Source: a virus (taxonomy: Duplodnaviria > Heunggongvirae > Uroviricota > Caudoviricetes). Taken from it: 30,523 nt of DNA. Below, in pieces: positions 2,708 to 19,943 of the stretch. The position numbers were made by a program, and so were the translations under genes. The notes beneath the pieces are model-generated. The model did not search any database and was not told the DNA's origin. It worked only from the letters and a program-made list of their open reading frames with translations. Position 1 is the stretch's first letter, and each line of letters opens with the position of its first letter. The stretch covers positions 1 to 30,523 of the IMG/VR virus record IMGVR_UViG_2737471824_000004. One strand, written 5' to 3'.

Positions 2708-3262
2708 TCAATGGATATTAAGTAACTGCTCCACGGTCATATTTTTAATTACGTCCCTGTTCACAAGCGTCCATCCCTGTTTCTCCAGATAAAAGCGGAA
2801 GGTTTCCAGGGTACAGACTATTGCTCCATCAGGAACGGTTTCAGTGAATTTGATGTTGCCGTGTTCGTCGAAGTGAACAACCAGAGTACGGCCATCGCCA
2901 GGAATCATCTTGTCAGCGGACGGGGTGTTATTCTGGCGCAGCTCTGCCTCCATGCGGTCAAACTCGGCAATGTAGGCTTCTTTGAACGCGGCGGCTTTTT
3001 TGCCGGTGAACCCCATCACCAAAAAAACGAAGCCGTTTTTGGTGATCTGGTACATTGGGAGCTTGCGTCCTGTTGAGTCGGTGTATTCGCTCGACACAAA
3101 ATTGTGCTCAGTGAATTTTGCTGAACAGTCCAGATTGCGAATTTTATCCAACACTCGTTCGTGGCGTTTACCAAAGAACTCGGCGATCGCAACAGACGTA
3201 GTGACAGCGCGACCATTTTCGATGGTTACATCAGGGTGATAAATGGTAGGGGTAGTAGCCAT
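2708..3262 (-). CDS. Rha-family phage regulatory/antirepressor protein with C-terminal domain shared with the ORF6N protein at 17746..18309
   Basis: Rha motif (VAIAEFFGKRHERVLDKIRNL...YQITKNGFVFLVMGFTGKKAAAFKEAYIAEF). Start chosen at ATG 3262 with GGAGG RBS 8 nt upstream; the in-frame upstream extension to 3670 crosses a terminator and a leader whose paralogue is non-coding. Confidence 0.7.
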   Translation of the reverse strand: MATTPTIYHPDVTIENGRAVTTSVAIAEFFGKRHERVLDKIRNLDCSAKFTEHNFVSSEYTDSTGRKLPMYQITKNGFVFLVMGFTGKKAAAFKEAYIAEFDRMEAELRQNNTPSADKMIPGDGRTLVVHFDEHGNIKFTETVPDGAIVCTLETFRFYLEKQGWTLVNRDVIKNMTVEQLLNIH

Positions 3263-3428
3263 GATGGCAGCCTCCGCGATGAATTTAATTAACTCACCAC
3301 CAGAGGTGCTAATCTCATGGGTGGTGAGACGCACAGGGTTAGCACTACCGGTCATCACGGAACCCGGCCAGCCTTGCGGCTGCCCTGCACGCCTCACCAT
3401 AATGCGAATGTGGCTGTGCTTAACGCAT

Positions 3429-3451
3429 AAAAAAACCGCCTGAGCGCGGTT
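3429..3451 (-). terminator. intrinsic terminator in the Rha leader (stem AACCGC/GCGGTT plus U7 on the minus strand)
   Basis: Hairpin at 3434..3451 followed on the minus strand by a 7-T run (plus-strand A-run 3429..3435). Confidence 0.5.
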
Positions 3452-3511
3452 ATGCGCCGTGATTGACTTCGGGGTGCTAATCCCGGCACCCGTTTTATGA
3501 GGTGCAGGTGA

Positions 3512-3540
3512 ACTATAATTCCACCCGTACTGGTTTTCAA
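3512..3540 (-). promoter_or_regulatory. sigma70-like promoter of the Rha cassette (-35 TTGAAA, 17-nt spacer, -10 TATAGT on the minus strand)
   Basis: Minus-strand hexamers at 3535..3540 and 3512..3517; homologous in position and sequence to the promoter at 17469..17497. Confidence 0.4.
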
Positions 3541-3739
3541 TAGCTACATTCAACATTTTCTCTTGCCTTTCATCACCGAAGTGAACTTTATTGATGCGGT
3601 GCCTGGTGCCTCCAGGTGACGTTAACCAGTTAACAATTAACGCCGGATACAGAGAATCCACCCATAACACTGTTTTTAGTTTTAACTGTTCCGCGTGCGC
3701 TTAGCCGCATTCACCGCATCACAAAATTCACTTTAAAAA

Positions 3740-3792: not shown

Positions 3793-4127
3793 ATTGATAA
3801 CAGAGGGCGTTGCAGCGGGGTTGTCACTTAAGCGTATGGTCAACCTGACAACCCGGTGTCCTCAACGGGGGAAGGAATAACCCCGCCATACTTACCGCCG
3901 CGCCATTTCGCGGATTGCCACAACCGGAAGCGCACGGTCGACGAAAATTTAACGACAGGCTATCTATGAACCAGCTACCTCGCCGTGCGCTTTCGCGTTA
4001 TGGTCTGACTTTTCAGGGAAATATCCTTTCAGTAAACTGTCAGTGCCGGATGCTCACCCGTGTCCGGCGCACGTACTCCACCTCACCCGTGGAGAACTCC
4101 TTAATCACCAACCCTCAGGAGGGTGAA

Positions 4128-4418
4128 ATGTCGACTGAAAATGATGAAATCATTAACTCCCTGATACGCCAAATTAATAATTTTGATAAAGCATTGCAGC
4201 ATGCTGCGGCGCGTAGTGATATAACTCTTTTAGCAATTTCATTTCTTGCATCTGTTATGGATAAAAATGAAGTCGTACGACAGAGTCTTGTTGATTATAT
4301 CGACTCGCTTCAACCCGGCACTTTCAATCATGAGAGCTTCAATCATGAGAGCTTCAATCATGAGAAAGAGCATGTTAAGTCTGTAATTAATTCTCTTATT
4401 TTGAATCAAAAGAATTAA
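4128..4418 (+). CDS. hypothetical protein (96 aa) with tandem SFNHE repeats; low-GC insert
   Basis: ATG 4128 with strong RBS AGGAGGG 5 nt upstream; low-GC coding sequence; opposite strand to the surrounding leftward operon; 3' end overlaps the convergent gene 4396..4716. Confidence 0.5.
   Translation: MSTENDEIINSLIRQINNFDKALQHAAARSDITLLAISFLASVMDKNEVVRQSLVDYIDSLQPGTFNHESFNHESFNHEKEHVKSVINSLILNQKN
4322..4366 (+). repeat. 15-bp tandem repeat (TTCAATCATGAGAGC x about 3) encoding SFNHE-SFNHE-SFNHE
   Basis: Direct reading of 4321..4370. Confidence 0.8.
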
Positions 4419-5272: not shown

Positions 5273-5457
5273 GTTGACCTCATTTCCCCTTAACGCCGGG
5301 GTAGCGGAACAAGAACCTGCTGCATAGTTATTAAAGTTGAACCCTGCCGTCATGTTCTTACGCCTCGGGCTGGCTACTTAACCCCTGACCACTGCCTGGT
5401 AACTCGAAGTATTGCCCTGCGTTCTGTGGGGCGGGGTGGGGTGGTGAAATAAGGATG

Positions 5458-5494
5458 CACTTTTAAAGTTATTATGTCAACACTTATAAAGTTA
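5458..5494. promoter_or_regulatory. left operator-like region: two copies of a 14-bp motif (CACTTTTAAAGTTA 5458..5471, CACTTATAAAGTTA 5481..5494) flanking a minus-strand TTGACA
   Basis: Same motif in opposite orientation in the cI/cro intergenic region (TAACTTTTAAAGTG 6522..6535); a -35-like TTGACA (minus, 5475..5480) lies between the copies. Confidence 0.4.
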
Positions 5495-5507
5495 GTTTGT
5501 GTGCAAC

Positions 5508-5531
5508 AAAAACCGCCTCGAGATGAGACGG
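5508..5531 (-). terminator. intrinsic terminator after the repressor-TA operon (imperfect stem CCGTCTC/GAGGCGG plus T5 on minus strand)
   Basis: Plus-strand hairpin 5513..5531 preceded by an A-run 5508..5512. Confidence 0.45.
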
Positions 5532-5544
5532 CCCTGTGAAAGGG

Positions 5545-5832
5545 TTAGTTCTGCTTAGGGAATTGGCGTCTGGCGTGTACTACACTCACGATCTCAATGC
5601 TTAAAGTGGCTACACGGTAAAGAATTATATAGTTAGGGTGAGCTACAATCTCACGCAAGCCAGGTACTCTGTCGCTTGGTGGGTATAAATACGGGTGTTC
5701 GGATAACGGCAGCACACACCCCCTTAATCGCTGCCATAAGCGTTCTGCCGCATCTATGTCGAAACGAGCAATATAACTAGTTATATCATCCAGGTCGGTA
5801 TCTGCGCTTTCAAGCCATAACACGGGTAACAT
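5545..5832 (-). CDS. type II toxin, ParE/RelE superfamily (95 aa)
   Basis: C-terminal signature ...REIVAHPNYIILYRV...VVHARR typical of ParE/RelE toxins; start ATG 3 nt after the upstream antitoxin stop with RBS ACGGAG inside that gene. Confidence 0.7.
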   Translation of the reverse strand: MLPVLWLESADTDLDDITSYIARFDIDAAERLWQRLRGCVLPLSEHPYLYPPSDRVPGLREIVAHPNYIILYRVATLSIEIVSVVHARRQFPKQN

Positions 5833-5835
5833 TTA

Positions 5836-6024
5836 CTACTTACTCCGTTCCTTGCGCATTTTAGCAAAGCGTTCTGCCATTCTGCGCTCAACCTCGTCAT
5901 GGGGAATTGCTGGGCGCGGATTTGCAAGGCTCGCTGCTACTTTCGCACGCAGCCATTCGTTGTAACTGTTTTCTTGTTCAATGGTTTCGAACTCAGAAAC
6001 CATTGGTGAAAGGGCCGTATTCAT
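5836..6024 (-). CDS. type II antitoxin (ParD/StbD-like, 62 aa) paired with the toxin at 5545..5832
   Basis: ATG 6024 with RBS CGGAGG 6 nt upstream; the longer track frame from 6087 would overlap the repressor gene; small acidic protein directly upstream of a ParE-like toxin. Confidence 0.6.
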   Translation of the reverse strand: MNTALSPMVSEFETIEQENSYNEWLRAKVAASLANPRPAIPHDEVERRMAERFAKMRKERSK

Positions 6025-6053
6025 GGCACACCTCCGTCTGTGTATGGTGGTCA

Positions 6054-6461
6054 TTATGCTCGATGCCCTTTCCGGGCAGCGAGCCATCTTTCAATTGTGC
6101 GCTCCATTAACTCTTTTTTGTCTTTCATCTCCTGAAGCATTTGTCCCTGTTCTTCCTCTGGGAATGCTCCAAATGTCTGAAGTAGCTCTCTTTGCTTCGG
6201 ACCTATTTTCATTGTGTCAGGTACCACAATCTGTTCGTCCTCACTTGGTGGCAACATAAACCAATATGGAGGGAATCCTGTTACTTCAGAAAGTTTATCA
6301 AGATTAGCCATTGATGGGCTTGTGATGCCATGAACCCACTTTTGGACCGATTGTTGGGCAACACCTATTCTGCGGGCTAGTTCTGCTTGCTTAAGCCCTG
6401 TTTTTTCCAGCACCAGTTTTATCCGGTACGTGGTTATTTCAAGAGTGGTCATTCGCTTCAT
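6054..6461 (-). CDS. prophage repressor, DicA/RacR-like (135 aa, N-terminal XRE HTH, no S24 peptidase domain)
   Basis: HTH motif LKQAELARRIGVAQQSVQKW; size and C-terminal pattern resemble DicA as recalled; divergent from the Cro-like gene; leaderless start at the predicted pRM. Confidence 0.75.
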   Translation of the reverse strand: MKRMTTLEITTYRIKLVLEKTGLKQAELARRIGVAQQSVQKWVHGITSPSMANLDKLSEVTGFPPYWFMLPPSEDEQIVVPDTMKIGPKQRELLQTFGAFPEEEQGQMLQEMKDKKELMERTIERWLAARKGHRA

Positions 6462-6568
6462 GCATTCATTTTACACAAAAAAAGTGTAGCTAGCATAATC
6501 AGCTTGAAAGTGTTGATAATGTAACTTTTAAAGTGTATAAGTGATGTCGATTGATTGGAGTTAACGAT
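6462..6568. promoter_or_regulatory. divergent immunity promoter/operator region (pR-like rightward, pRM-like leftward)
   Basis: Rightward TTGATA (6513..6518), 17-nt spacer, TATAAG (6536..6541); leftward -10 TAAAAT (minus, 6468..6473) placing the start at the ATG 6461; three AAAGTGT copies at 6481, 6507, 6530 (spacing 26 and 23 bp); palindrome TACAC-A7-GTGTA at 6472..6488. Confidence 0.55.
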
Positions 6569-6847
6569 ATGCATAAATGTTTAAAAAATAAAATTCGCCA
6601 AATAGGGTTATCCCAAGCGGGTATTGCTCGCTTGATTGGGTTGCCACAGCAGGTTGTATGTCGATGGGTTAATGGGCAACAGGTCCCTGCATCAAGGGTT
6701 TTACAACTGTGTGAGATTATGGCGTGGACTGTCACCCCCCACGAGCTCCGACCAGATATTTACCCTAACCCAACCGATGGCCTGCCTTGTGGACGTAAGA
6801 GTACAGCGAATGAATTACTGGCGGTGAACAATGAAAATCACTCCTGA
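6569..6847 (+). CDS. Cro/YdaS-like HTH regulator (92 aa)
   Basis: ATG 6569 with GGAG RBS 8 nt upstream; HTH LSQAGIARLIGLPQQVVCRW and HELRPD motif typical of YdaS/Cro-like proteins. Confidence 0.7.
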   Translation: MHKCLKNKIRQIGLSQAGIARLIGLPQQVVCRWVNGQQVPASRVLQLCEIMAWTVTPHELRPDIYPNPTDGLPCGRKSTANELLAVNNENHS

Positions 6848-7352
6848 ACAGGTTTGCGAGGCTCTGGATGCCTGGGTATGCAAACCAGGAATGACACAGG
6901 AGCAGGCGACGATATTAATCACAGAAGCATTCTGGGATCTGAAAGAGCGCCCGAACATCGATGTTCAGCGTGTCACGCTTGATGATGGCGGGGTTGATCA
7001 GCGTGCGCTTGGCGTTAACCGGGTGAAGATATTCGAACGCTGGAAGGCTATCGACACCAGGGATAAGCGTGAAAAATTCACGGCGCTGATTCCGGCAATT
7101 ATGGAGGCTATCCGGATTAGTGATTTCAGGTTGTACCGCGAAATTACTGATGGAAAAAGCATTACGTACATGATTGCCGGGTTAAACAAAGAATATGTCG
7201 ATGTGGTGGAGTCCGGGCTGCTTTTTGCAGATCCAGCTGTTGTGGAACGTGAGACAGACGAGCTTATAGAAAAAGCAATCGCTTTCAAGCGTGCCTATCG
7301 TCACCAGTACCAACAAAAAGCCGGATGGAATTATGAGCCTTCTTTTTGCTGA
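6831..7352 (+). CDS. YdaT-like protein (173 aa), function uncertain
   Basis: ORF-track ORF overlapping the Cro-like stop; position after the Cro/YdaS-like gene matches the Rac order racR-ydaS-ydaT-ydaU-ydaV; family assignment from memory only. Confidence 0.4.
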   Translation: MKITPEQVCEALDAWVCKPGMTQEQATILITEAFWDLKERPNIDVQRVTLDDGGVDQRALGVNRVKIFERWKAIDTRDKREKFTALIPAIMEAIRISDFRLYREITDGKSITYMIAGLNKEYVDVVESGLLFADPAVVERETDELIEKAIAFKRAYRHQYQQKAGWNYEPSFC

Positions 7353-8310
7353 ACGCCCGCTGGTTATAAACACACAGCTGGCGATGAAGATTGGTTTAAA
7401 CGAAGCAATTGTGTTGCAGCAACTGCATTACTGGTTGAGGGATACCAGTTCTGGCATGGAATGTGATGGCGTTCGCTGGATTTACAACACAACGGAACAA
7501 TGGCTGGAACAGTTTCCGTTCTGGTCAGAGTCAACGTTAAAGCGTGCGTTTGCAAGTCTGAAAACGCTGGGGCTTTTGCGTAGCGAAAAGCTCAATAAAT
7601 CGAAGCGTGACATGACTAATTTTTACACAATTAACTACGATAGCGCGCTTTTAGATGATGGCAAAGTGAACGAATCCATCGGGTCAAAATGCGCCACTCC
7701 ATCAGGTCAAAATGACACGATGGAAGAGGTCAGGATGAAACGTTCCATTGGTTCAAAACGACCCAATGTCATCAGGTCAAAATGGCACGATGATCCTACA
7801 GAGAATACAACAGAGAATACAACAGAGAATACAACAGAGAATAAAAAACTCTCTTGTCCGGACGCTTCGCAACCGGACGAGTTGACGGCTGAACAGGCGT
7901 TTTTAACCCGCCATCCTGATGCTGTTGTGTTCAGCGTGAAAAAACGCCAGTGGGGAACCCGGGAGGATTTGACATGTGCGCAGTGGATCTGGGGGCGGGT
8001 TGTAAACCTGTACGAACAGGCTGCCAGTGACGATGGTGAGATCACGCGACCGAAAGAGCCCAACTGGACGGCGTGGGCCAATGACGTGCGCACAATGCGG
8101 ATGCTGGATGGAAGAAGTCACAGACAAATTTGCGAAATGTTCAGCCGGGCACAACGGGATCCGTTCTGGATAAAAAACATCAAGAGCCCGGAAAAACTCC
8201 GTGAGAAATGGGATGAACTGGTTATTCGACTGTGGCGTGGTCCCGCGCAGCGTTGCGTGAATCATATTTCTGAACCGGATACCGAAATTCCGCCGGGTTT
8301 CAGGGGGTAG
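7333..8310 (+). CDS. phage replication initiation/replisome organiser protein (O/YdaU-like, about 325 aa)
   Basis: ATG 7333 (track M at 7291 is GTG); N-terminal motif NEAIVLQQLHYWL typical of replisome-organiser N domains; iterons inside the gene; followed by a DnaC-like loader. Confidence 0.6.
   Translation: MSLLFAERPLVINTQLAMKIGLNEAIVLQQLHYWLRDTSSGMECDGVRWIYNTTEQWLEQFPFWSESTLKRAFASLKTLGLLRSEKLNKSKRDMTNFYTINYDSALLDDGKVNESIGSKCATPSGQNDTMEEVRMKRSIGSKRPNVIRSKWHDDPTENTTENTTENTTENKKLSCPDASQPDELTAEQAFLTRHPDAVVFSVKKRQWGTREDLTCAQWIWGRVVNLYEQAASDDGEITRPKEPNWTAWANDVRTMRMLDGRSHRQICEMFSRAQRDPFWIKNIKSPEKLREKWDELVIRLWRGPAQRCVNHISEPDTEIPPGFRG
7678..7784. repeat. putative origin iterons: four copies of ATCRGGTCAAAATG-like motif (7678, 7701, 7747, 7771)
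   Basis: Direct repeats at 23, 46 and 24-bp spacing inside the O-like gene, analogous to ori-lambda lying within gene O. Confidence 0.5.
7798..7845 (+). repeat. 12-bp tandem repeat ACAGAGAATACA x 4 (encodes TENTTENTTENTTEN)
   Basis: Direct reading; immediately downstream of the iterons. Confidence 0.8.
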
Positions 8311-13010: not shown

Positions 13011-13186
13011 TGCAGCGGGTGCTTGAGGCTATCTGTCTCAGGCATGAACACCAAAAGGCAGATAGAGAAAAGCCCCAGTTAACATTACGCGTCCGGCAAG
13101 ACGCTTAACATTAATCTGAGGCTCAATCTATGAACGGCAAATCTAGGTTAGCCTCTTACGTGCCGAAAGGCAAGGAGAAGCAGGCT

Positions 13187-13342
13187 ATGAAGCAGCAAAA
13201 GGCGATGTTAATCGCCCTGATCGTCATCTGTTTAACCGTCATAGTGACGGCACTGGTAACGAGGAAAGACCTCTGCGAGGTACGAATCCGAACCGGCCAG
13301 ACGGAGGTCGCTGTCTTCACAGCTTACGAACCTGAGGAGTAA
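13187..13342 (+). CDS. hokD: Hok/Gef-family type I toxin (51 aa; HokD/RelF-like)
   Basis: MKQQKAMLIALIVICLTVIVTALVTRKDLCEVRIRTGQTEVAVFTAYEPEE: transmembrane helix plus LCEVR...EVAVF signature; AAGGAG RBS; in-frame upstream extension from 13130 is a mok-like leader frame. Confidence 0.75.
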   Translation: MKQQKAMLIALIVICLTVIVTALVTRKDLCEVRIRTGQTEVAVFTAYEPEE

Positions 13343-13508: not shown

Positions 13509-14123
13509 ATGCAGAATTTATCTCAACAGTTGTTAGAAGCATATGACAAGGAGTGCCGCAAAGAGCTTTCGATCGCGTTAGCACAGGCTTATCTTCATTC
13601 GCATATGAAGGCAAAAGAGTTTGGTTCTTTTTGGGCTCAAGCACAGTCATATTTGCGCTGGTTTTATGCCGATGCATTGCTTGAGAATGCGGCTAAGCGT
13701 GTGGGGCTGGATTTTGAAGTCGGTAGCAATGCTGCTAAAAATTGTAAACACATTGCGATTCACTCGAACAACTGGAAAATGACGGCACATCATTTATCGG
13801 GTAATGCGCCACTTCCTAAGCAGGCATTGTATAGAGCTGTTTACGCTAATCAAAATTATGAATTGAATTTTGGGGATGAAAATGCCGACTCCCTGGATGG
13901 GAGAGCGTCTGGTGGACATGTTTATATGTTACATGATGGCAGTAATCAGCACTTGTCCAAACTGAATTTAACTGTTCCTTCTTCGGATAATTACGGGATT
14001 CTTTATACTGAGTCTTTACCAATTATGACGATGGTAGAAGTTGAAGCAGAAAATGTGGATTCTGAGATTGAAGATAAAATCAAGATTCTTACCGAACAAA
14101 TAATTAAATCACAGCAATCATGA
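13509..14123 (+). CDS. hypothetical protein (204 aa), first gene of a two-gene low-GC module
   Basis: ATG 13509 with AAGGA RBS; stop overlaps the downstream start (ATGA); two TGGTTGACA boxes upstream (13445..13452, 13477..13484). Confidence 0.55.
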   Translation: MQNLSQQLLEAYDKECRKELSIALAQAYLHSHMKAKEFGSFWAQAQSYLRWFYADALLENAAKRVGLDFEVGSNAAKNCKHIAIHSNNWKMTAHHLSGNAPLPKQALYRAVYANQNYELNFGDENADSLDGRASGGHVYMLHDGSNQHLSKLNLTVPSSDNYGILYTESLPIMTMVEVEAENVDSEIEDKIKILTEQIIKSQQS

Positions 14124-15265
14124 GCATGAATATCGCACAAACACCATTTACTGATAAATCGTTTAATCCTCGTCGCCTTGAGGAGGCAAGAGAGGCAAAA
14201 GGGTTGACGATGGCTGAACTTGCCAGAGTGCTCAATATTTCAAGACAAGCTATTTCGTCATTTGAGAAGGGGTTGAAGTCTCCCTCTGCTGATACACTTT
14301 CTGCAATAGCCAAGGTGTTAGGATTTCCAGAACGATTTTTCTTAGCCTCCAGTGCTTCTCCATCTCTGGAGGGGGCGATTCATTTTAGAAGTCGTTCAAC
14401 TGCGACCAAAAAGGCTCGAGTTACAGGGAAAACACGTGGGCGTTGGGCGGCATTAATATTGGATGAATGTCTAAAATATGCTCAATTACCAGATGTGGTT
14501 CTGCCTGAATTCGATATTATTGATTTTGAGGTTCTGTCTCTATCTGATATTGAGGATATGTCCACCCAATTAAGGCGTTTTTGGGGGTTAGGTGATGGTC
14601 CAATACTCAATTTAACTAGACTTGTTGAAAATAAAGGAATCGTGGTTTCTCATTTACCTTCTGGTGAGAAAGTTGATGCCTTTTCGTTCTGGCATAATGG
14701 GCGGCCTTTAATTATGTTAGATAGCTCGAAGACGGCTGTTCGCATGCGATTTAGTCTTGCTCATGAACTTGGCCATTTAATTATGCATAGGGCAGTGGAG
14801 GATGACTACCTGAATGATAAAGAATTATTCGACCTGGTGGAGTTGCAGGCCGATTATTTTGCCTCCAGCTTTTTAATGCCAGCCACGACTTTCGGGCGTG
14901 AATTTTATAGTCCAAATTTATCAGCGTTAGAACGATTAAAACTACGTTGGATTACATCTATCGGTAGTATTGCCATGAGGAGTCATAGCCTTAAGTTAAT
15001 CAGCGATAATCAGAAAAGCTATATATTTAAGCAATTAGCGCCATTCCATCGTAGGGAGCCGTTAGATGATGCAATCCCAAAAGAAGAGCCTGAGTTACTT
15101 AATAAGTTACTTTTACTTCTTGATAAGCATTCAATCATAAAGGTAACTGAGTTAACTGATATCTTTGCTCTTCCCTTAAATGAGTTATCTGCAATTACAC
15201 GATTTAAAGAATCAGATATGATTCATTCTGACAATGTTATTTCATTTACCATAAAACAAAAATAA
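14120..15265 (+). CDS. XRE-family HTH fused to ImmA/IrrE-type zinc metallopeptidase (COG2856-like), 381 aa with C-terminal extension
   Basis: HTH LTMAELARVLNISRQAISSFEKG; HEXXH motif LAHELGHLIMH. Confidence 0.75.
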   Translation: MSMNIAQTPFTDKSFNPRRLEEAREAKGLTMAELARVLNISRQAISSFEKGLKSPSADTLSAIAKVLGFPERFFLASSASPSLEGAIHFRSRSTATKKARVTGKTRGRWAALILDECLKYAQLPDVVLPEFDIIDFEVLSLSDIEDMSTQLRRFWGLGDGPILNLTRLVENKGIVVSHLPSGEKVDAFSFWHNGRPLIMLDSSKTAVRMRFSLAHELGHLIMHRAVEDDYLNDKELFDLVELQADYFASSFLMPATTFGREFYSPNLSALERLKLRWITSIGSIAMRSHSLKLISDNQKSYIFKQLAPFHRREPLDDAIPKEEPELLNKLLLLLDKHSIIKVTELTDIFALPLNELSAITRFKESDMIHSDNVISFTIKQK

Positions 15266-15276
15266 TTCTCATTCAT

Positions 15277-15300
15277 ACCCGCCTCGGCGGGTTTTTGTTT
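15277..15300 (+). terminator. intrinsic terminator (ACCCGCC-TC-GGCGGGT plus T-run)
   Basis: Direct reading. Confidence 0.6.
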
Positions 15301-17745: not shown

Positions 17746-18309
17746 ATGACAACTCAAATCTCTGTTGAAACTCTCTCCCCGATCACCCATAACCAGATTC
17801 CTGTTATTACCACTGAACTTTTGGCGCAGCTTTATGGCACCGAAATTCTGAATATCCAGGTTAACTTCACCAGAAACAAAGAGCGTTTTGTCGCAGGAAA
17901 GCACTTTTTTAAAGCAGCGGGTGAGGAATTAAAAAAATTGCGACTTACTTTAAGTAAGTCACAAAATCCCATCTCTCCCAAAACCCGCTTCCTCATCCTA
18001 TGGACAGAACGCGGAGCTGCCCGCCACGCAAAAATGCTGGAAACAGATCAGGCGTGGGAAGTATTCGAAAAACTGGAAGACTGTTATTTCAGCCAGAAAC
18101 AGCCACCAGCAACACAAAACTCCCCCACCGAAAATGATGGATGCGCATTACTGATCCACTTCGATAAACACGGTCAGGTCGACTTCACGGAAAAAGTACC
18201 CGCCGATGCGATGGTATGCACTCTGGAACGGTTCAAATTTTATCTGGAACAACGCGGCTGGATCGTTGCCAGTAAAGAGCAACTGGTGGAACGACTGATG
18301 CGACTTTAA
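17746..18309 (+). CDS. ORF6N/KilA-N-type antirepressor-like protein with the same C-terminal domain as the Rha protein (187 aa)
   Basis: N-terminal ITTELLAQLYGTE...NKERFVAGKHFF...LWTERGAARHAKML resembles the ORF6N domain; C-terminus LLIHFDKHGQVDFTEKVPADAMVCTLERFKFYLEQRGW parallels the Rha C-terminus; RBS GAGGG. Confidence 0.65.
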   Translation: MTTQISVETLSPITHNQIPVITTELLAQLYGTEILNIQVNFTRNKERFVAGKHFFKAAGEELKKLRLTLSKSQNPISPKTRFLILWTERGAARHAKMLETDQAWEVFEKLEDCYFSQKQPPATQNSPTENDGCALLIHFDKHGQVDFTEKVPADAMVCTLERFKFYLEQRGWIVASKEQLVERLMRL

Positions 18310-18881: not shown

Positions 18882-19943
18882 ATGGCTAATACTGTAAAAA
18901 TATCCAGTTGTGAGTTAATCAACGCTGATTGCCTGGAATTTATCCAGACCTTACCGGAAAACTCTGTCGATCTGATAGTCACAGACCCACCATACTTTAA
19001 AGTGAAGCCAGATGGCTGGGATAACCAGTGGAAGGGCGATGATGATTACCTGAAATGGCTGGATCAGTGTCTGGCGCAGTTCTGGCGGGTGTTAAAACCT
19101 GCCGGAAGCCTTTACCTGTTCTGCGGTCATCGTCTGGCATCTGATATCGAAATCATGATGCGTGAACGCTTTAATGTGCTGAACCACATTATCTGGGCGA
19201 AGCCGTCCGGACGTTGGAATGGGTGTAATAAAGAAAGTCTGCGCGCATATTTTCCTGCCACAGAGCGCGTTCTGTTTGCTGAACATTACCAGGGGCCATA
19301 TCGCGGCAAAAGTGACGGCTATGCAGCAAAAGAAAGGAAACTCAAACAGCACATAATGGCACCGCTGATATCGTATTTCAGGGATGCTCGTGCCGAACTG
19401 GGTATAACGGCAAAACAAATTGCCGAAGCCACAGGTAAGAAAAATATGGTTTCCCACTGGTTTGGTGCCAGTCAGTGGCAGTTGCCGAATGAGGCTGACT
19501 ACCGGAAGTTACAGGCACTGTTTTCCCGTATAGCGGCAGAGAAGTTTCAGGAACAACAACTGGAACAACCACACCACCAGTTGGTGGCATCTTATGATTC
19601 ACTGAATCGCAAATATTCTGAATTGCTGGATGAGTTTAAATCTCTCCGGCGCTGGTTCTCCGTATCAGTCTCCGTGCCTTATACCGATGTCTGGATGCAT
19701 AAACCCGTTCAGTTCTACCCGGGCAAACATCCGTGTGAGAAACCGGCGGATATGCTCAGGCAAATAATCAATGCCAGTAGTCGACCTGGCGATCTGGTTG
19801 CTGATTTCTTTATGGGATCCGGTTCCACAATAAAAGCAGCAATGGCGCTGGGGCGTCGGGCATTAGGTGTTGAGCTTGAGACAGAACGGTTCAATAAGAC
19901 CATTCAGGAAATCAGTATGTTATCAGCAAATACAATTTTGTGA
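18882..19943 (+). CDS. DNA methyltransferase, N6-adenine/N4-cytosine family (beta class; 353 aa)
   Basis: Motif IV DPPY (IVTDPPYF) before motif I FxGSGS (FFMGSGSTIKAA); no adjacent restriction gene. Confidence 0.8.
   Translation: MANTVKISSCELINADCLEFIQTLPENSVDLIVTDPPYFKVKPDGWDNQWKGDDDYLKWLDQCLAQFWRVLKPAGSLYLFCGHRLASDIEIMMRERFNVLNHIIWAKPSGRWNGCNKESLRAYFPATERVLFAEHYQGPYRGKSDGYAAKERKLKQHIMAPLISYFRDARAELGITAKQIAEATGKKNMVSHWFGASQWQLPNEADYRKLQALFSRIAAEKFQEQQLEQPHHQLVASYDSLNRKYSELLDEFKSLRRWFSVSVSVPYTDVWMHKPVQFYPGKHPCEKPADMLRQIINASSRPGDLVADFFMGSGSTIKAAMALGRRALGVELETERFNKTIQEISMLSANTIL

What the first reader, a model, noticed from the sequence alone, without database searches (positions are those of the whole stretch)
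6054..6568. Short non-cleavable repressor with leaderless start and three-copy operator array
The repressor (135 aa) has an XRE HTH but no LexA/S24-like autocleavage domain, so SOS induction by RecA-stimulated self-cleavage is not expected; derepression would need an antirepressor, and two are encoded. The predicted leftward -10 (TAAAAT) puts the transcript start at the ATG itself (leaderless, as for lambda cI from pRM). Three AAAGTGT-containing sites at 23 to 26-bp spacing overlap the rightward promoter.
Basis: partly seen in the sequence, partly recalled or inferred. Interest (0 to 1): 0.45.

Follow-up and report, generated by a model that had tools for sequence, protein, structure and literature searches.

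The report
Short prophage repressor, leaderless start, three operators
This is the master repressor and switch region of a lambda-like E. coli prophage, a new immunity variant of the already studied DicA / Gifsy GtgR / PaaR family of short repressors that are not cut during DNA damage, so it is a well-formed but ordinary example.

Summary
Window 6054-6461 (-) encodes a 135-aa repressor with a 434-type helix-turn-helix and an all-helical C-terminal domain, and no S24 peptidase. A TAAAAT -10 lies exactly 6 nt upstream of its ATG, with no Shine-Dalgarno. Three AAAGTGT motifs are spaced 26 and 23 bp apart.

The motifs are right halves of 15-bp dyads (ACAC-N7-GTGT type): OR3 6473-6487, OR2 6499-6513, OR1 6522-6536. 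Two more sites (OL1, OL2) flank a leftward TTGACA promoter about 1 kb away.

The gene heads an operon with PaaA2/ParE2 toxin-antitoxin genes (about 95% identical to the solved proteins). It faces cro-like ydaS and cII-like ydaT.

This kind is published. PaaR2 of CP-933P was shown by 5' RACE and N-terminal sequencing to be leaderless, to footprint the intergenic region, and to lack the peptidase motif. DicA and the Gifsy repressors are inactivated by small antirepressors.

In 13 of 14 related loci a -10-like hexamer sits 6-8 nt from the first ATG.

The "two antirepressors" claim is not supported. They are Rha- and ORF6N-family proteins. I found no Rem, GftA or DinI homologue and no perfect LexA box.

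Verdict: new member of a known kind, low interest.

The parts
6054..6461 (-). Repressor gene, 135 aa. It is the CI analogue, of the PaaR/DicA/GtgR type.
   Evidence: ORF. Pfam HTH_3 at E 1.3e-13. 65% identical to P0046, whose locus L014 (99% conserved in O157:H7 genomes) is inferred to be paaR1. 34% identical to K-12 DicA. 33.6% identical to the Gifsy-1/-2 repressor.
6258..6422 (-). 434/P22-C2-type helix-turn-helix DNA-binding domain, residues 14-68. The recognition helix is Q36-Q37-S38-V39-Q40-K41-W42.
   Evidence: the alignment to 434 repressor places QQSVQKW against QQSIEQL. Fold matches.
6057..6221 (-). C-terminal two-helix domain, residues 81-135. It is shared with PaaR2 and is the presumed oligomerisation or antirepressor-target domain.
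   Evidence: 53% identity to PaaR2 residues 69-123, E 4e-16. Helices 88-98 and 102-133 in the model.
6468..6473 (-). -10 hexamer TAAAAT of the leftward (PRM-like) promoter.
   Evidence: Read directly. Invariant in close relatives. The same position relative to the ATG in 13 of 14 loci.
6459..6461 (-). ATG start codon at the predicted transcript 5' end (leaderless start).
   Evidence: It lies 7 nt after the last base of the -10. No SD is present. The PaaR2 precedent comes from 5' RACE.
6473..6487 (.). OR3: ACACAAAAAAAGTGT, perfect in its outer parts (TACAC-N7-GTGTA, 6472-6488). It is centred at -19 from the ATG and overlaps the leftward -10.
6499..6513 (.). OR2: TCAGCTTGAAAGTGT, centred at -45 from the repressor ATG. 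It abuts the -35 of the rightward promoter.
6522..6536 (.). OR1: TAACTTTTAAAGTGT, centred at -68. It lies between the -35 and -10 of the rightward promoter.
6513..6541 (+). Rightward PR-like promoter: TTGATA, 17 nt, TATAAG.
   Evidence: Read directly. GTGTTGAT and GTGTATAA are conserved in relatives. The consensus scan did not call it because position 6 of the -10 is not T.
6569..6847 (+). ydaS, the Cro analogue, with a GGAG Shine-Dalgarno at 6557-6560.
   Evidence: Pfam YdaS_toxin at E 1.3e-10. Function by analogy with CP-933P YdaS.
6831..7352 (+). ydaT, the CII analogue.
   Evidence: Pfam YdaT_toxin at E 1.1e-5. PMC9986795 and PMC8630535.
5836..6024 (-). paaA2-type antitoxin, co-oriented 29 nt downstream of the repressor, with a GGAGG Shine-Dalgarno.
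   Evidence: E 1e-33 to PDB 3zbe PaaA2.
5545..5832 (-). parE2-type toxin.
   Evidence: E 1.2e-57 to PDB 5cw7_B.
5503..5530 (-). Intrinsic terminator-like hairpin with a U-run, ending the repressor-paaA-parE operon.
   Evidence: Fold of -15.3 kcal/mol, z -2.67. Sequence.
5452..5494 (-). PL/OL-like region. OL1 is 5457-5471 (GCACTTTTAAAGTTA) and OL2 is 5480-5494 (ACACTTATAAAGTTA), 23 bp apart. They flank a -35 TTGACA (5480->5475) and a weak -10 CATCCT (5457->5452).
   Evidence: The geometry matches OR1/OR2 relative to PR.

Best explanation
Window 6054-6568 is the immunity core of a lambdoid E. coli prophage.

The 135-aa protein is the CI-equivalent repressor of the DicA / Gifsy GtgR-GfoR / PaaR family. 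It has a 434-like HTH, a flexible linker and a two-helix C-terminal domain, and no S24 peptidase.

It is transcribed leftward from a weak PRM-like promoter. The -10 (TAAAAT) places +1 on the A of the ATG, so the mRNA is leaderless, as shown experimentally for paaR2 and lambda cI.

The repressor, and probably the Cro-like YdaS, binds three 15-bp dyad operators of the type ACAC-N7-GTGT:
- OR1 and OR2 cover the -10/-35 of the rightward promoter for ydaS-ydaT-replication genes.
- OR3 covers the repressor's own -10, giving negative autoregulation.
- OL1 and OL2, about 1 kb to the left, cover a PL-like promoter just past the operon terminator.

The repressor operon also carries paaA2-parE2, an addiction module.

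Because the protein cannot self-cleave, leaving lysogeny must rely on one of two routes. One is a bistable repressor/YdaS switch. The other is a small antirepressor that binds the repressor, as in Gifsy phages and Qin. That antirepressor is not identified in this window.

Shown here: the sequence features, the homologies, and conservation of the geometry. Inferred: the 5' end of the transcript, operator occupancy, and the induction route.
For: Domain content.

Homology:
- PaaR2 C-terminal domain, 53% identity.
- DicA, 34% identity over 109 aa.
- Gifsy-1/-2 repressor, 33.6% identity, E 2e-11.
- 65% identity to P0046, whose locus L014 (conserved in O157:H7) is the second paaR-paaA-parE locus and is inferred to be paaR1.

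Context: PaaA2 and ParE2 lie downstream and YdaS/YdaT lie divergent. The same architecture is seen in 11 fetched loci.

Leaderless start: TAAAAT + 6 nt + ATG, the same as GATAAT + 6 nt + ATG in CP-933P, where 5' RACE and N-terminal sequencing proved leaderless translation. A -10-like hexamer sits 6-8 nt from the first ATG, without an SD, in 13 of 14 loci, including Gifsy-2. The ATG and the hexamer are invariant in close relatives while the N-terminal extension varies in length.

Operators: three 4-N7-4 dyads centred near -19, -45 and -68 in 9 of the 11 loci scanned. In L008 and L013 the -19 site fell below the scan threshold but can be read by eye. In the window, OR1 at -68 also fell below that scan and is supported. 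Helix residue 41 covaries with operator position 4. There are 6 hits with 3 or fewer mismatches against 1.33 expected, and five of them fall in OR and OL.

Published behaviour of homologues: footprint, repression and activation, PL/OL, octamer, no mitomycin C response. Antirepressors GftA/GfoA and Rem.
Against: There is no RNA or protein data for this locus.

The -35 of the leftward promoter is poor (ATGCTA, 3 of 6), so activity may depend on activation.

Gene callers start most homologues at the second Met (132 aa).

The PR -10 (TATAAG) lacks the usual T at position 6, and the PL -10 (CATCCT) is weak.

OR1, OR2, OL1 and OL2 each have one degenerate half-site.

The N-terminal domain and the operators are unrelated to those of PaaR2, so the PaaR2 experiments transfer only by analogy.

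No antirepressor candidate of the validated type was found.
Confidence: 0.8

Rival explanations
1. Translation starts at the second in-frame ATG (6450-6452, product MTTLE..., 132 aa). The mRNA would then have a short 9-nt leader rather than being truly leaderless.
For: RefSeq/PGAP annotates the identical gene as 6054-6452. Most database homologues are 132 aa.
Against: - No Shine-Dalgarno lies upstream of that ATG (-1.0 kcal/mol).
- The first ATG always sits 6-8 nt after the -10, although the number of codons between the two Mets varies (MKRM, MKM, MM, M).
- In PaaR2 the terminal ATG is used.
Confidence: 0.1
2. No antirepressor is involved. The switch leaves the repressed state only through stochastic or growth-phase-dependent competition between the repressor and YdaS at the shared operators, or through proteolysis, as in a bistable cryptic-prophage circuit.
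For: - CP-933P PaaR2/YdaS is bistable, is set in stationary phase, and is not mitomycin responsive.
- DicA-controlled dicBp switches on spontaneously, independent of Rem.
- The window has no Rem, GftA or DinI homologue and no perfect LexA box.
Against: - Full-length homologues GtgR/GfoR and DicA are demonstrably inactivated by small antirepressors.
- Such proteins are small and diverge fast, so BLAST can miss them.
- They can act in trans from other prophages.
- The window covers only part of the prophage.
Confidence: 0.3
3. The Rha+Ash protein (2708-3670) and/or the ORF6N protein (17746-18309) are the cognate antirepressors.
For: PHROG families matching these proteins carry anti-repressor labels. 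phrog_2379 matches at E 4.6e-89, and phrog_373 and phrog_63 also match.
Against: - The best PHROG for the Rha protein is 'transcriptional regulator' (phrog_995).
- Rha, ORF6N and KilA-N are DNA-binding domains, and the label is annotation-level only.
- They are unrelated to GftA/GfoA/Rem, the only validated antirepressors of this repressor family.
- No LexA box lies upstream of either gene.
Confidence: 0.1
4. The protein is primarily the dedicated transcriptional regulator of the paaA-parE toxin-antitoxin module (a 'split antitoxin'), not a prophage master repressor.
For: PaaR was first described this way. The gene is co-oriented with paaA2-parE2, 29 nt upstream.
Against: - The same repressor family sits in the same position with quite different downstream cargo, or without any TA genes.
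- The operators cover the promoter of the cro/cII/replication operon and a PL-like promoter.
- DNA homology with CP-933P breaks exactly at the paaA start. The repressor-operator-cro block therefore behaves as an exchangeable immunity cassette.
Confidence: 0.08

Closest known systems
PaaR2-PaaA2-ParE2 / YdaS-YdaT immunity region of cryptic prophage CP-933P (E. coli O157:H7; Jurenas et al. 2021, PMC8630535)
   Same: - Gene order and orientation.
- PaaA2 and ParE2 about 95% identical.
- C-terminal 55 aa of the repressor 53% identical.
- The same -10 + 6 nt + ATG leaderless geometry.
- About 100-bp divergent intergenic region with multiple operators.
- PL/OL-like site beyond the operon.
- No peptidase motif.
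   Different: - The N-terminal DNA-binding domain is not detectably homologous.
- The operators differ (ACAC-N7-GTGT here, against GTTTAGTAA-type repeats).
- DNA homology stops at the paaA start codon, so this is a heteroimmune cassette.
- YdaT is longer (173 aa), and no TTGATT-N6-AATCAA site is found.
Second paaR-paaA-parE locus of O157:H7 (inferred paaR1 system of Hallez et al. 2010; locus L014)
   Same: Full-length homologue (65% identity, 133 aa). It shares the HTH_3 type, the same three-operator layout, and TAAAAT + 6 nt + ATG.
   Different: - The operator core is ACAG/ACAA-N7-CTGT/TTGT.
- Gln replaces Lys at recognition-helix position 41.
- It is linked to a different PaaA/ParE pair.
- The identification as PaaR1 is by elimination, not from a named record.
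Gifsy-1/-2/-3 repressors (GtgR/GogR, GfoR, GfhR) with LexA-controlled small antirepressors (Lemire et al. 2011, PMC3121763)
   Same: A short non-cleavable lambdoid repressor with an HTH plus a helical C-terminal region (33.6% identity). Gifsy-2 also shows TAAAAT + 6 nt + ATG.
   Different: The window has no dinI-antirepressor operon and no LexA box. The flanking cro/cII genes are of a different type.
DicA/DicC of cryptic prophage Qin with antirepressor Rem (Ragunathan et al. 2023, PMC10448788)
   Same: 135 aa, 34% identity across both domains. It is the CI-like repressor of a bistable switch. A DUF1391 gene and hokD are present in the prophage, as in Qin.
   Different: No Rem homologue was found. 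The dicA upstream region lacks an obvious -10 at the leaderless distance.
Phage 434 repressor/operator and lambda cI-PRM
   Same: - The recognition helix QQSxxx aligns with that of 434.
- The operators begin with ACA, as 434's ACAA does.
- A tripartite OR with 23-26 bp spacing and a leaderless repressor mRNA, as for lambda cI.
   Different: - A 15-bp dyad (N7 spacer) rather than 14 bp.
- No RecA-sensitive C-terminal domain.
- OR2 is centred at -45 rather than -42 (the lambda value is from my own knowledge, not checked here).
SinR/SinI and SPbeta-like phage repressor/AimX pairs
   Same: An HTH_3 domain plus a C-terminal helical domain. Foldseek hits to 1b0n_A and to 9sf2/9iaq align over more than 100 columns. 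These repressors are neutralised by small binding proteins.
   Different: This is only an architectural resemblance: rmsd is 8-11 A and sequence identity 17-20%. No membership is claimed.

Membership tests
Short non-cleavable lambdoid repressors (DicA / GtgR-GfoR / PaaR family) | N-terminal Cro/C1 (XRE, 434-like) helix-turn-helix | tested here: met
   Pfam HTH_3 at E 1.3e-13, residues 14-68. Best PDB sequence hits are the 434 and P22 C2 repressors. Fold hits.
Short non-cleavable lambdoid repressors (DicA / GtgR-GfoR / PaaR family) | No S24 peptidase domain and no RecA-dependent cleavage site | tested here: met
   No S24 hit in Pfam. The protein is 135 aa and the model is all-helical. Actual non-cleavage in vivo cannot be tested here.
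Short non-cleavable lambdoid repressors (DicA / GtgR-GfoR / PaaR family) | Sequence homology to family prototypes, including the C-terminal helical domain | tested here: met
   DicA at 34% identity, E 2e-17. PaaR2 C-terminal domain at 53%, E 4e-16. Gifsy-1/-2 repressor at 33.6%, E 2e-11.
Short non-cleavable lambdoid repressors (DicA / GtgR-GfoR / PaaR family) | Occupies the cI position, divergent from cro-like and cII-like genes upstream of the replication genes | tested here: met
   ydaS, ydaT, and O-like and DnaC-like genes lie to the right. The same layout is seen in 11 fetched loci.
Short non-cleavable lambdoid repressors (DicA / GtgR-GfoR / PaaR family) | Inactivation by a small antirepressor protein | tested here: inconclusive
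   tblastn of the window found no homologue of Rem, of the presumed GftA ORF STM1020.1n, or of DinI. No perfect LexA box is present. Such proteins are small and divergent and may be encoded elsewhere. Binding cannot be tested with these tools.
paaR-paaA-parE three-component toxin-antitoxin operon | PaaA antitoxin and ParE toxin genes directly downstream of the regulator, in the same orientation | tested here: met
   PaaA2 at E 1e-33 and ParE2 at E 1.2e-57 against the solved proteins. Gaps are 29 nt and 3 nt. A terminator follows parE.
paaR-paaA-parE three-component toxin-antitoxin operon | Regulator orthologous to PaaR2 over its whole length, with the same operators | tested here: not met
   Only residues 81-135 align with PaaR2. 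The operators differ. The regulator is instead 65% identical to P0046, whose locus L014 is the inferred paaR1 locus.
Leaderless repressor mRNA (lambda cI from PRM, paaR2 from PRM933P) | -10 hexamer placed so that +1 falls on the A of the start codon | tested here: met
   TAAAAT, 6 nt, then ATG. The geometry is identical in CP-933P. The gap is 6-8 nt in 13 of 14 loci.
Leaderless repressor mRNA (lambda cI from PRM, paaR2 from PRM933P) | No Shine-Dalgarno upstream of the start codon | tested here: met
   The anti-SD duplex is +0.4 kcal/mol, against -5.9 to -10.8 for neighbouring genes.
Leaderless repressor mRNA (lambda cI from PRM, paaR2 from PRM933P) | Mapped 5' end at the AUG, and protein N-terminus derived from that AUG | not testable with these tools
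   This needs 5' RACE or primer extension plus N-terminal sequencing. It has been done only for PaaR2.
LexA/lambda CI-type autocleavable repressors | C-terminal S24 serine-lysine peptidase domain with an Ala-Gly cleavage site | tested here: not met
   The protein is too short, and the C-terminal part is two helices.

The most novel reading that the evidence does not exclude
This immunity type may carry no SOS-linked antirepressor of its own. Prophages that use it include an Stx2b-converting prophage with a 100% identical 2-kb immunity region in strain 2015C-3121. Such prophages would leave lysogeny in one of two ways: through the bistable repressor/YdaS switch, or through antirepressors supplied in trans by co-resident prophages.

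A second point is the family-wide layout: a leaderless ATG, operators at -19/-45/-68, and residue 41 K/R pairing with C (Q with A/G) at operator position 4. If it holds, it would give a simple code to predict immunity specificity from sequence.
Probability: 0.2. Interest if true: 0.45.

Novelty: new member of a known kind. Interest (0 to 1): 0.2.

Why it matters
The window provides a clean, fully readable example of a lambda-like switch built on a non-cleavable repressor. It is a natural chimera: a PaaR1-like repressor, operator and cro cassette joined to the PaaA2-ParE2 addiction module.

The comparative result is useful for correcting start-codon annotation, since most database entries and RefSeq start 3 codons too late. 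It also helps predict heteroimmunity among E. coli and Salmonella prophages, some of which carry Shiga toxin genes. The result is a -10 hexamer 6-8 nt from the first ATG across the family, three dyad operators at fixed positions, and a residue/base covariation.

None of the principles is new. Each has been shown experimentally in PaaR2, DicA or the Gifsy repressors.

Tried and rejected
- **ImmA-like protease as inducer.** ORF 14120-15265 has HTH_3 + Peptidase_M78, which suggested an ImmA/ImmR-style cleavage route. PADLOC identifies it, with 13509-14123, as the Rosmer RmrA/RmrT defence pair. Rejected.
- **Small antirepressors.** tblastn of the window with K-12 Rem, with the ORF after dinI in Gifsy-2 (STM1020.1n, presumed GftA) and with DinI gave no hit better than E 0.16.
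- **LexA boxes.** No perfect CTGT-N8-ACAG is present. There are 15 one-mismatch hits against 9.2 expected, and none lies upstream of a candidate gene.
- **PaaR2 structure in the PDB.** None is held. Only HTH domains of 434/P22 are hit.
- **Species-representative genome scan.** It returned only 2 loci. Diversity had to be gathered through exact-protein look-ups.
- **YdaT site TTGATT-N6-AATCAA.** It is absent from the ydaS-ydaT region.
- **Alternative rightward promoter.** TTTACA-18-CATAAT at 6470-6499 was flagged by the scan. Its -10 is not conserved in close relatives, so it is probably not functional.
- **Whole-window match.** No complete E. coli genome holds the window as a whole; the best covers 61%. 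Only the 2-kb immunity region is 100% identical to strain 2015C-3121.
- **First structure job.** It was rerun without that row.
Full report
**What is at the coordinates**

The minus-strand ORF 6054-6461 encodes 135 aa. Pfam finds a Cro/C1-type HTH (HTH_3, residues 14-68, E 1.3e-13) and nothing resembling peptidase S24. The nearest solved sequences are the DNA-binding domains of the 434 and P22 C2 repressors.

An AlphaFold model (mean pLDDT 84) shows five helices at residues 6-69, a disordered linker, and two C-terminal helices at 88-98 and 102-133.

Upstream on the coding strand the sequence is TTTTTTTGTG-TAAAAT-GAATGC-ATG. The hexamer is 6 nt from the ATG, so the canonical +1 falls on the A. 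The TAA inside the hexamer is an in-frame stop, so no longer ORF is possible. The anti-Shine-Dalgarno duplex energy of the 20 nt upstream is +0.4 kcal/mol. The values are -5.9 for ydaS, -10.8 for paaA and -6.1 for parE.

AAAGTGT occurs at 6481, 6507 and 6530, which accounts for 3 of the 5 copies in 30.5 kb. All three parts of the observation are therefore confirmed.

**Context**

Directly downstream on the same strand are an antitoxin (5836-6024) and a toxin (5545-5832). They match the solved PaaA2 and ParE2 of E. coli O157:H7 at E 1e-33 and 1.2e-57, with roughly 95% identity. A hairpin plus U-run follows them.

Divergently transcribed are a YdaS-family gene (6569-6847), a YdaT-family gene (6831-7352), an O-like gene and a DnaC/IstB-like gene. 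This is the architecture of the CP-933P immunity region described by Jurenas et al. 2021 (PMC8630535).

**What is already published for that system and its relatives**

For CP-933P:
- 5' RACE placed the paaR2 transcript start on the start codon, and N-terminal sequencing and mass spectrometry confirmed leaderless translation.
- PaaR2 protects about 78 bp of the 97-bp intergenic region.
- It represses PR and PL, and at low level activates its own promoter.
- It octamerises.
- It lacks the peptidase motif and is not mitomycin C responsive.
- With YdaS it forms a bistable switch.

For DicA (135 aa) and the Gifsy repressors, cleavage does not occur. Small antirepressors inactivate them: Rem for DicA, and GftA/GfoA/GfhA for the Gifsy repressors. 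The Gifsy antirepressors are expressed from a LexA-controlled dinI operon in the nin region.

**Relationship of this repressor to those proteins**

I fetched CP-933P from O157:H7 EC4115 (L001). PaaR2 aligns only with residues 81-135 of the window protein (53% identity, E 4e-16). The N-terminal domains are not alignable.

K-12 DicA aligns over both domains at 34% identity. The Gifsy-1/-2 repressor aligns at 33.6%.

The closest relatives are 60-93% identical proteins of 131-135 aa from E. coli, Salmonella, Enterobacter, Klebsiella and others. One of them, P0046 (65% identity), heads a second paaR-paaA-parE locus that is 99% conserved in O157:H7 genomes. O157:H7 has two such systems, so this is by elimination the paaR1 system. 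That naming is an inference.

Megablast homology between the window and O157 CP-933P stops at window position 6025, the paaA start. Homology with other lambdoid phages resumes near 6820, at the ydaS/ydaT junction. The block of repressor, operators and ydaS therefore behaves as an exchangeable immunity cassette.

Of 5426 complete E. coli genomes, 634 carry the TA genes but only 28 carry this cassette with them. One is an Stx2b prophage in strain 2015C-3121, 100% identical over 2 kb.

**Leaderless start: comparative test**

I collected 14 loci: the window, ten relatives with 36-77% identity, CP-933P, Gifsy-2 and Qin.

In 13 of them a hexamer of the form TAnAAT or GATAAT lies 6-8 nt upstream of the first ATG, with no Shine-Dalgarno. 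L004 and L008 were read by eye, because the script picked an internal hexamer there.

The number of codons between this ATG and the conserved core varies (MKRM, MKM, MM, M). In close relatives the hexamer and the ATG are invariant. This argues that the constraint is on an ATG at the transcript start, not on the peptide.

Gene callers, including RefSeq for the identical gene, usually start at the second Met. That choice is probably wrong. Only dicA lacks an obvious hexamer at this distance.

**Operators**

The repeated heptamer is the right half of a 15-bp dyad whose idealised form is ACACTTT-N-AAAGTGT.
- OR3, 6473-6487: perfect in its outer four positions (TACAC-N7-GTGTA). It is centred at -19 from the ATG and overlaps the -10 of the repressor promoter.
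- OR2, 6499-6513: centred at -45.
- OR1, 6522-6536: centred at -68.

OR2 and OR1 bracket the -35 (TTGATA, 6513-6518) and the -10 (TATAAG, 6536-6541) of the best rightward promoter candidate.

Scanning the window with the idealised dyad at 3 or fewer mismatches gives 6 hits against 1.33 expected. Three are OR. Two lie 23 bp apart at 5457-5471 and 5480-5494, and they flank a leftward TTGACA immediately after the operon terminator. Those two were not used to derive the consensus, so they support it independently. They reproduce the OR1/OR2-to-promoter geometry, as a PL/OL equivalent.

In 9 of the 11 loci scanned, three 4-N7-4 dyads were detected centred near -19/-20, -44/-46 and -67/-69. In L008 and L013 the -19 site fell below the scan threshold. 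The sites ACTCATATTTTGGGT and ACCCATTTTTTGAGT can be read by eye. In the window, OR1 at -68 also fell below that scan threshold and rests.

The fourth base of the half-site tracks recognition-helix residue 41. K or R goes with ACAC...GTGT (5 of 5 loci). Q goes with ACAA or ACAG (6 of 6 loci). In the alignment to 434 repressor, residue 41 corresponds to Gln33. From my own knowledge of the 434 co-crystal structures, Gln33 contacts operator base pair 4, and the 434 operator is ACAA. The loci fall into only three or four clades, so this covariation is suggestive, not proven.

**Induction route**

The statement that two antirepressors are encoded does not hold up. The candidates are a Rha+Ash-family protein (2708-3670) and an ORF6N-domain protein (17746-18309). 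Both belong to DNA-binding families that are labelled anti-repressor only by annotation.

Further negative results:
- There is no homologue of Rem, of the ORF after dinI in Gifsy-2 (presumed GftA), or of DinI.
- There is no perfect LexA box.
- An HTH-M78 protein that could have been an ImmA-like protease is the RmrA component of a Rosmer defence pair.

The route out of repression is therefore unresolved. The options are a divergent or trans-acting small antirepressor, or the bistable switch alone.

Foldseek places the whole-protein architecture next to SinR/SinI and the Phi106 repressor/AimX complexes. In both, a small protein neutralises an HTH-plus-helical-domain repressor. This is an architectural resemblance only.

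**Verdict**

The finding is accurate and its main interpretations are sound, but the kind is already known in detail. This is a heteroimmune new member of the DicA/GtgR/PaaR family, not a new mechanism. The comparative regularities are modestly useful additions. Interest is low, at 0.2.

Noticed in passing
window 13509-15265 (+): A two-gene Rosmer anti-phage defence system sits in the nin region. It comprises an RmrT-like gene (13509-14123, E 7.5e-10) and RmrA (14120-15265, HTH + M78 peptidase, E 5.5e-102). It lies between hokD (13130-13342) and a phrog_1212 ORF/DUF968 gene, and a terminator-like hairpin follows near 15270-15295.
   Followed up: partly
window 18890-18909 (+): TACTGTAAAAATATCCAGTT matches 16 of 20 positions of the LexA consensus, with CTG-N10-CAG intact. 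It lies inside the first codons of the DNA methyltransferase gene 18882-19943. One-mismatch LexA-like hits are not enriched in the window, so this may be chance.
   Followed up: partly
window 2708-3670 (-): One 320-aa ORF (GTG start) combines an Ash-family segment (residues 52-146) and a Rha domain (157-241). phrog_995 'transcriptional regulator' matches it over nearly its full length. Whether this is one protein or a mis-called start was not examined.
   Followed up: no
window 6450-6461 and loci L002, L008, L010, L016: Database start codons for this repressor family look systematically wrong. RefSeq starts the identical gene at the second Met (132 aa). Gifsy-2 GtgR is annotated from a GTG that overlaps the -10 region, although TAAAAT + 6 nt + ATG is present.
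   Followed up: yes
loci L006-L014, downstream of the repressor gene: The slot after the repressor (the rexAB position in lambda) holds different cargo in each relative. Examples are PaaA-ParE (window, L014), a PLDc_2 nuclease-like protein (L013), a weak DUF6414 hit (L008) and unknown ORFs elsewhere. This suggests a moron or defence hot-spot.
   Followed up: no
L002 (NZ_CP027340.1 3445000-3480522): The identical 2-kb immunity region (window 5400-7400) sits in an Stx2b-converting prophage of strain 2015C-3121. The rest of that prophage differs from the window. No complete E. coli genome holds the window as a whole; the best covers 61%.
   Followed up: partly
window 6470-6499 (+): A second rightward promoter-like match, TTTACA-18-CATAAT (10 of 12 positions), overlaps OR3 and the leftward -10. 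Its -10 is not conserved in close relatives, so it is probably not functional.
   Followed up: yes
window about 7770-7830 (+) and about 4330-4380 (+): Short in-frame tandem repeats are visible in the translations: TENTT three times in the O-like replication protein (ORF 7291-8310), and ESFNH three times in ORF 3915-4418. The first may be origin iterons inside the O gene, as in lambda. This was not examined.
   Followed up: no
window 5452-5457 (-): The PL-like promoter has a consensus -35 (TTGACA) but a poor -10 (CATCCT). In CP-933P, by contrast, the -35 and -10 elements of PL are reported to be identical to those of PR. PL may be weak or decayed here.
   Followed up: no
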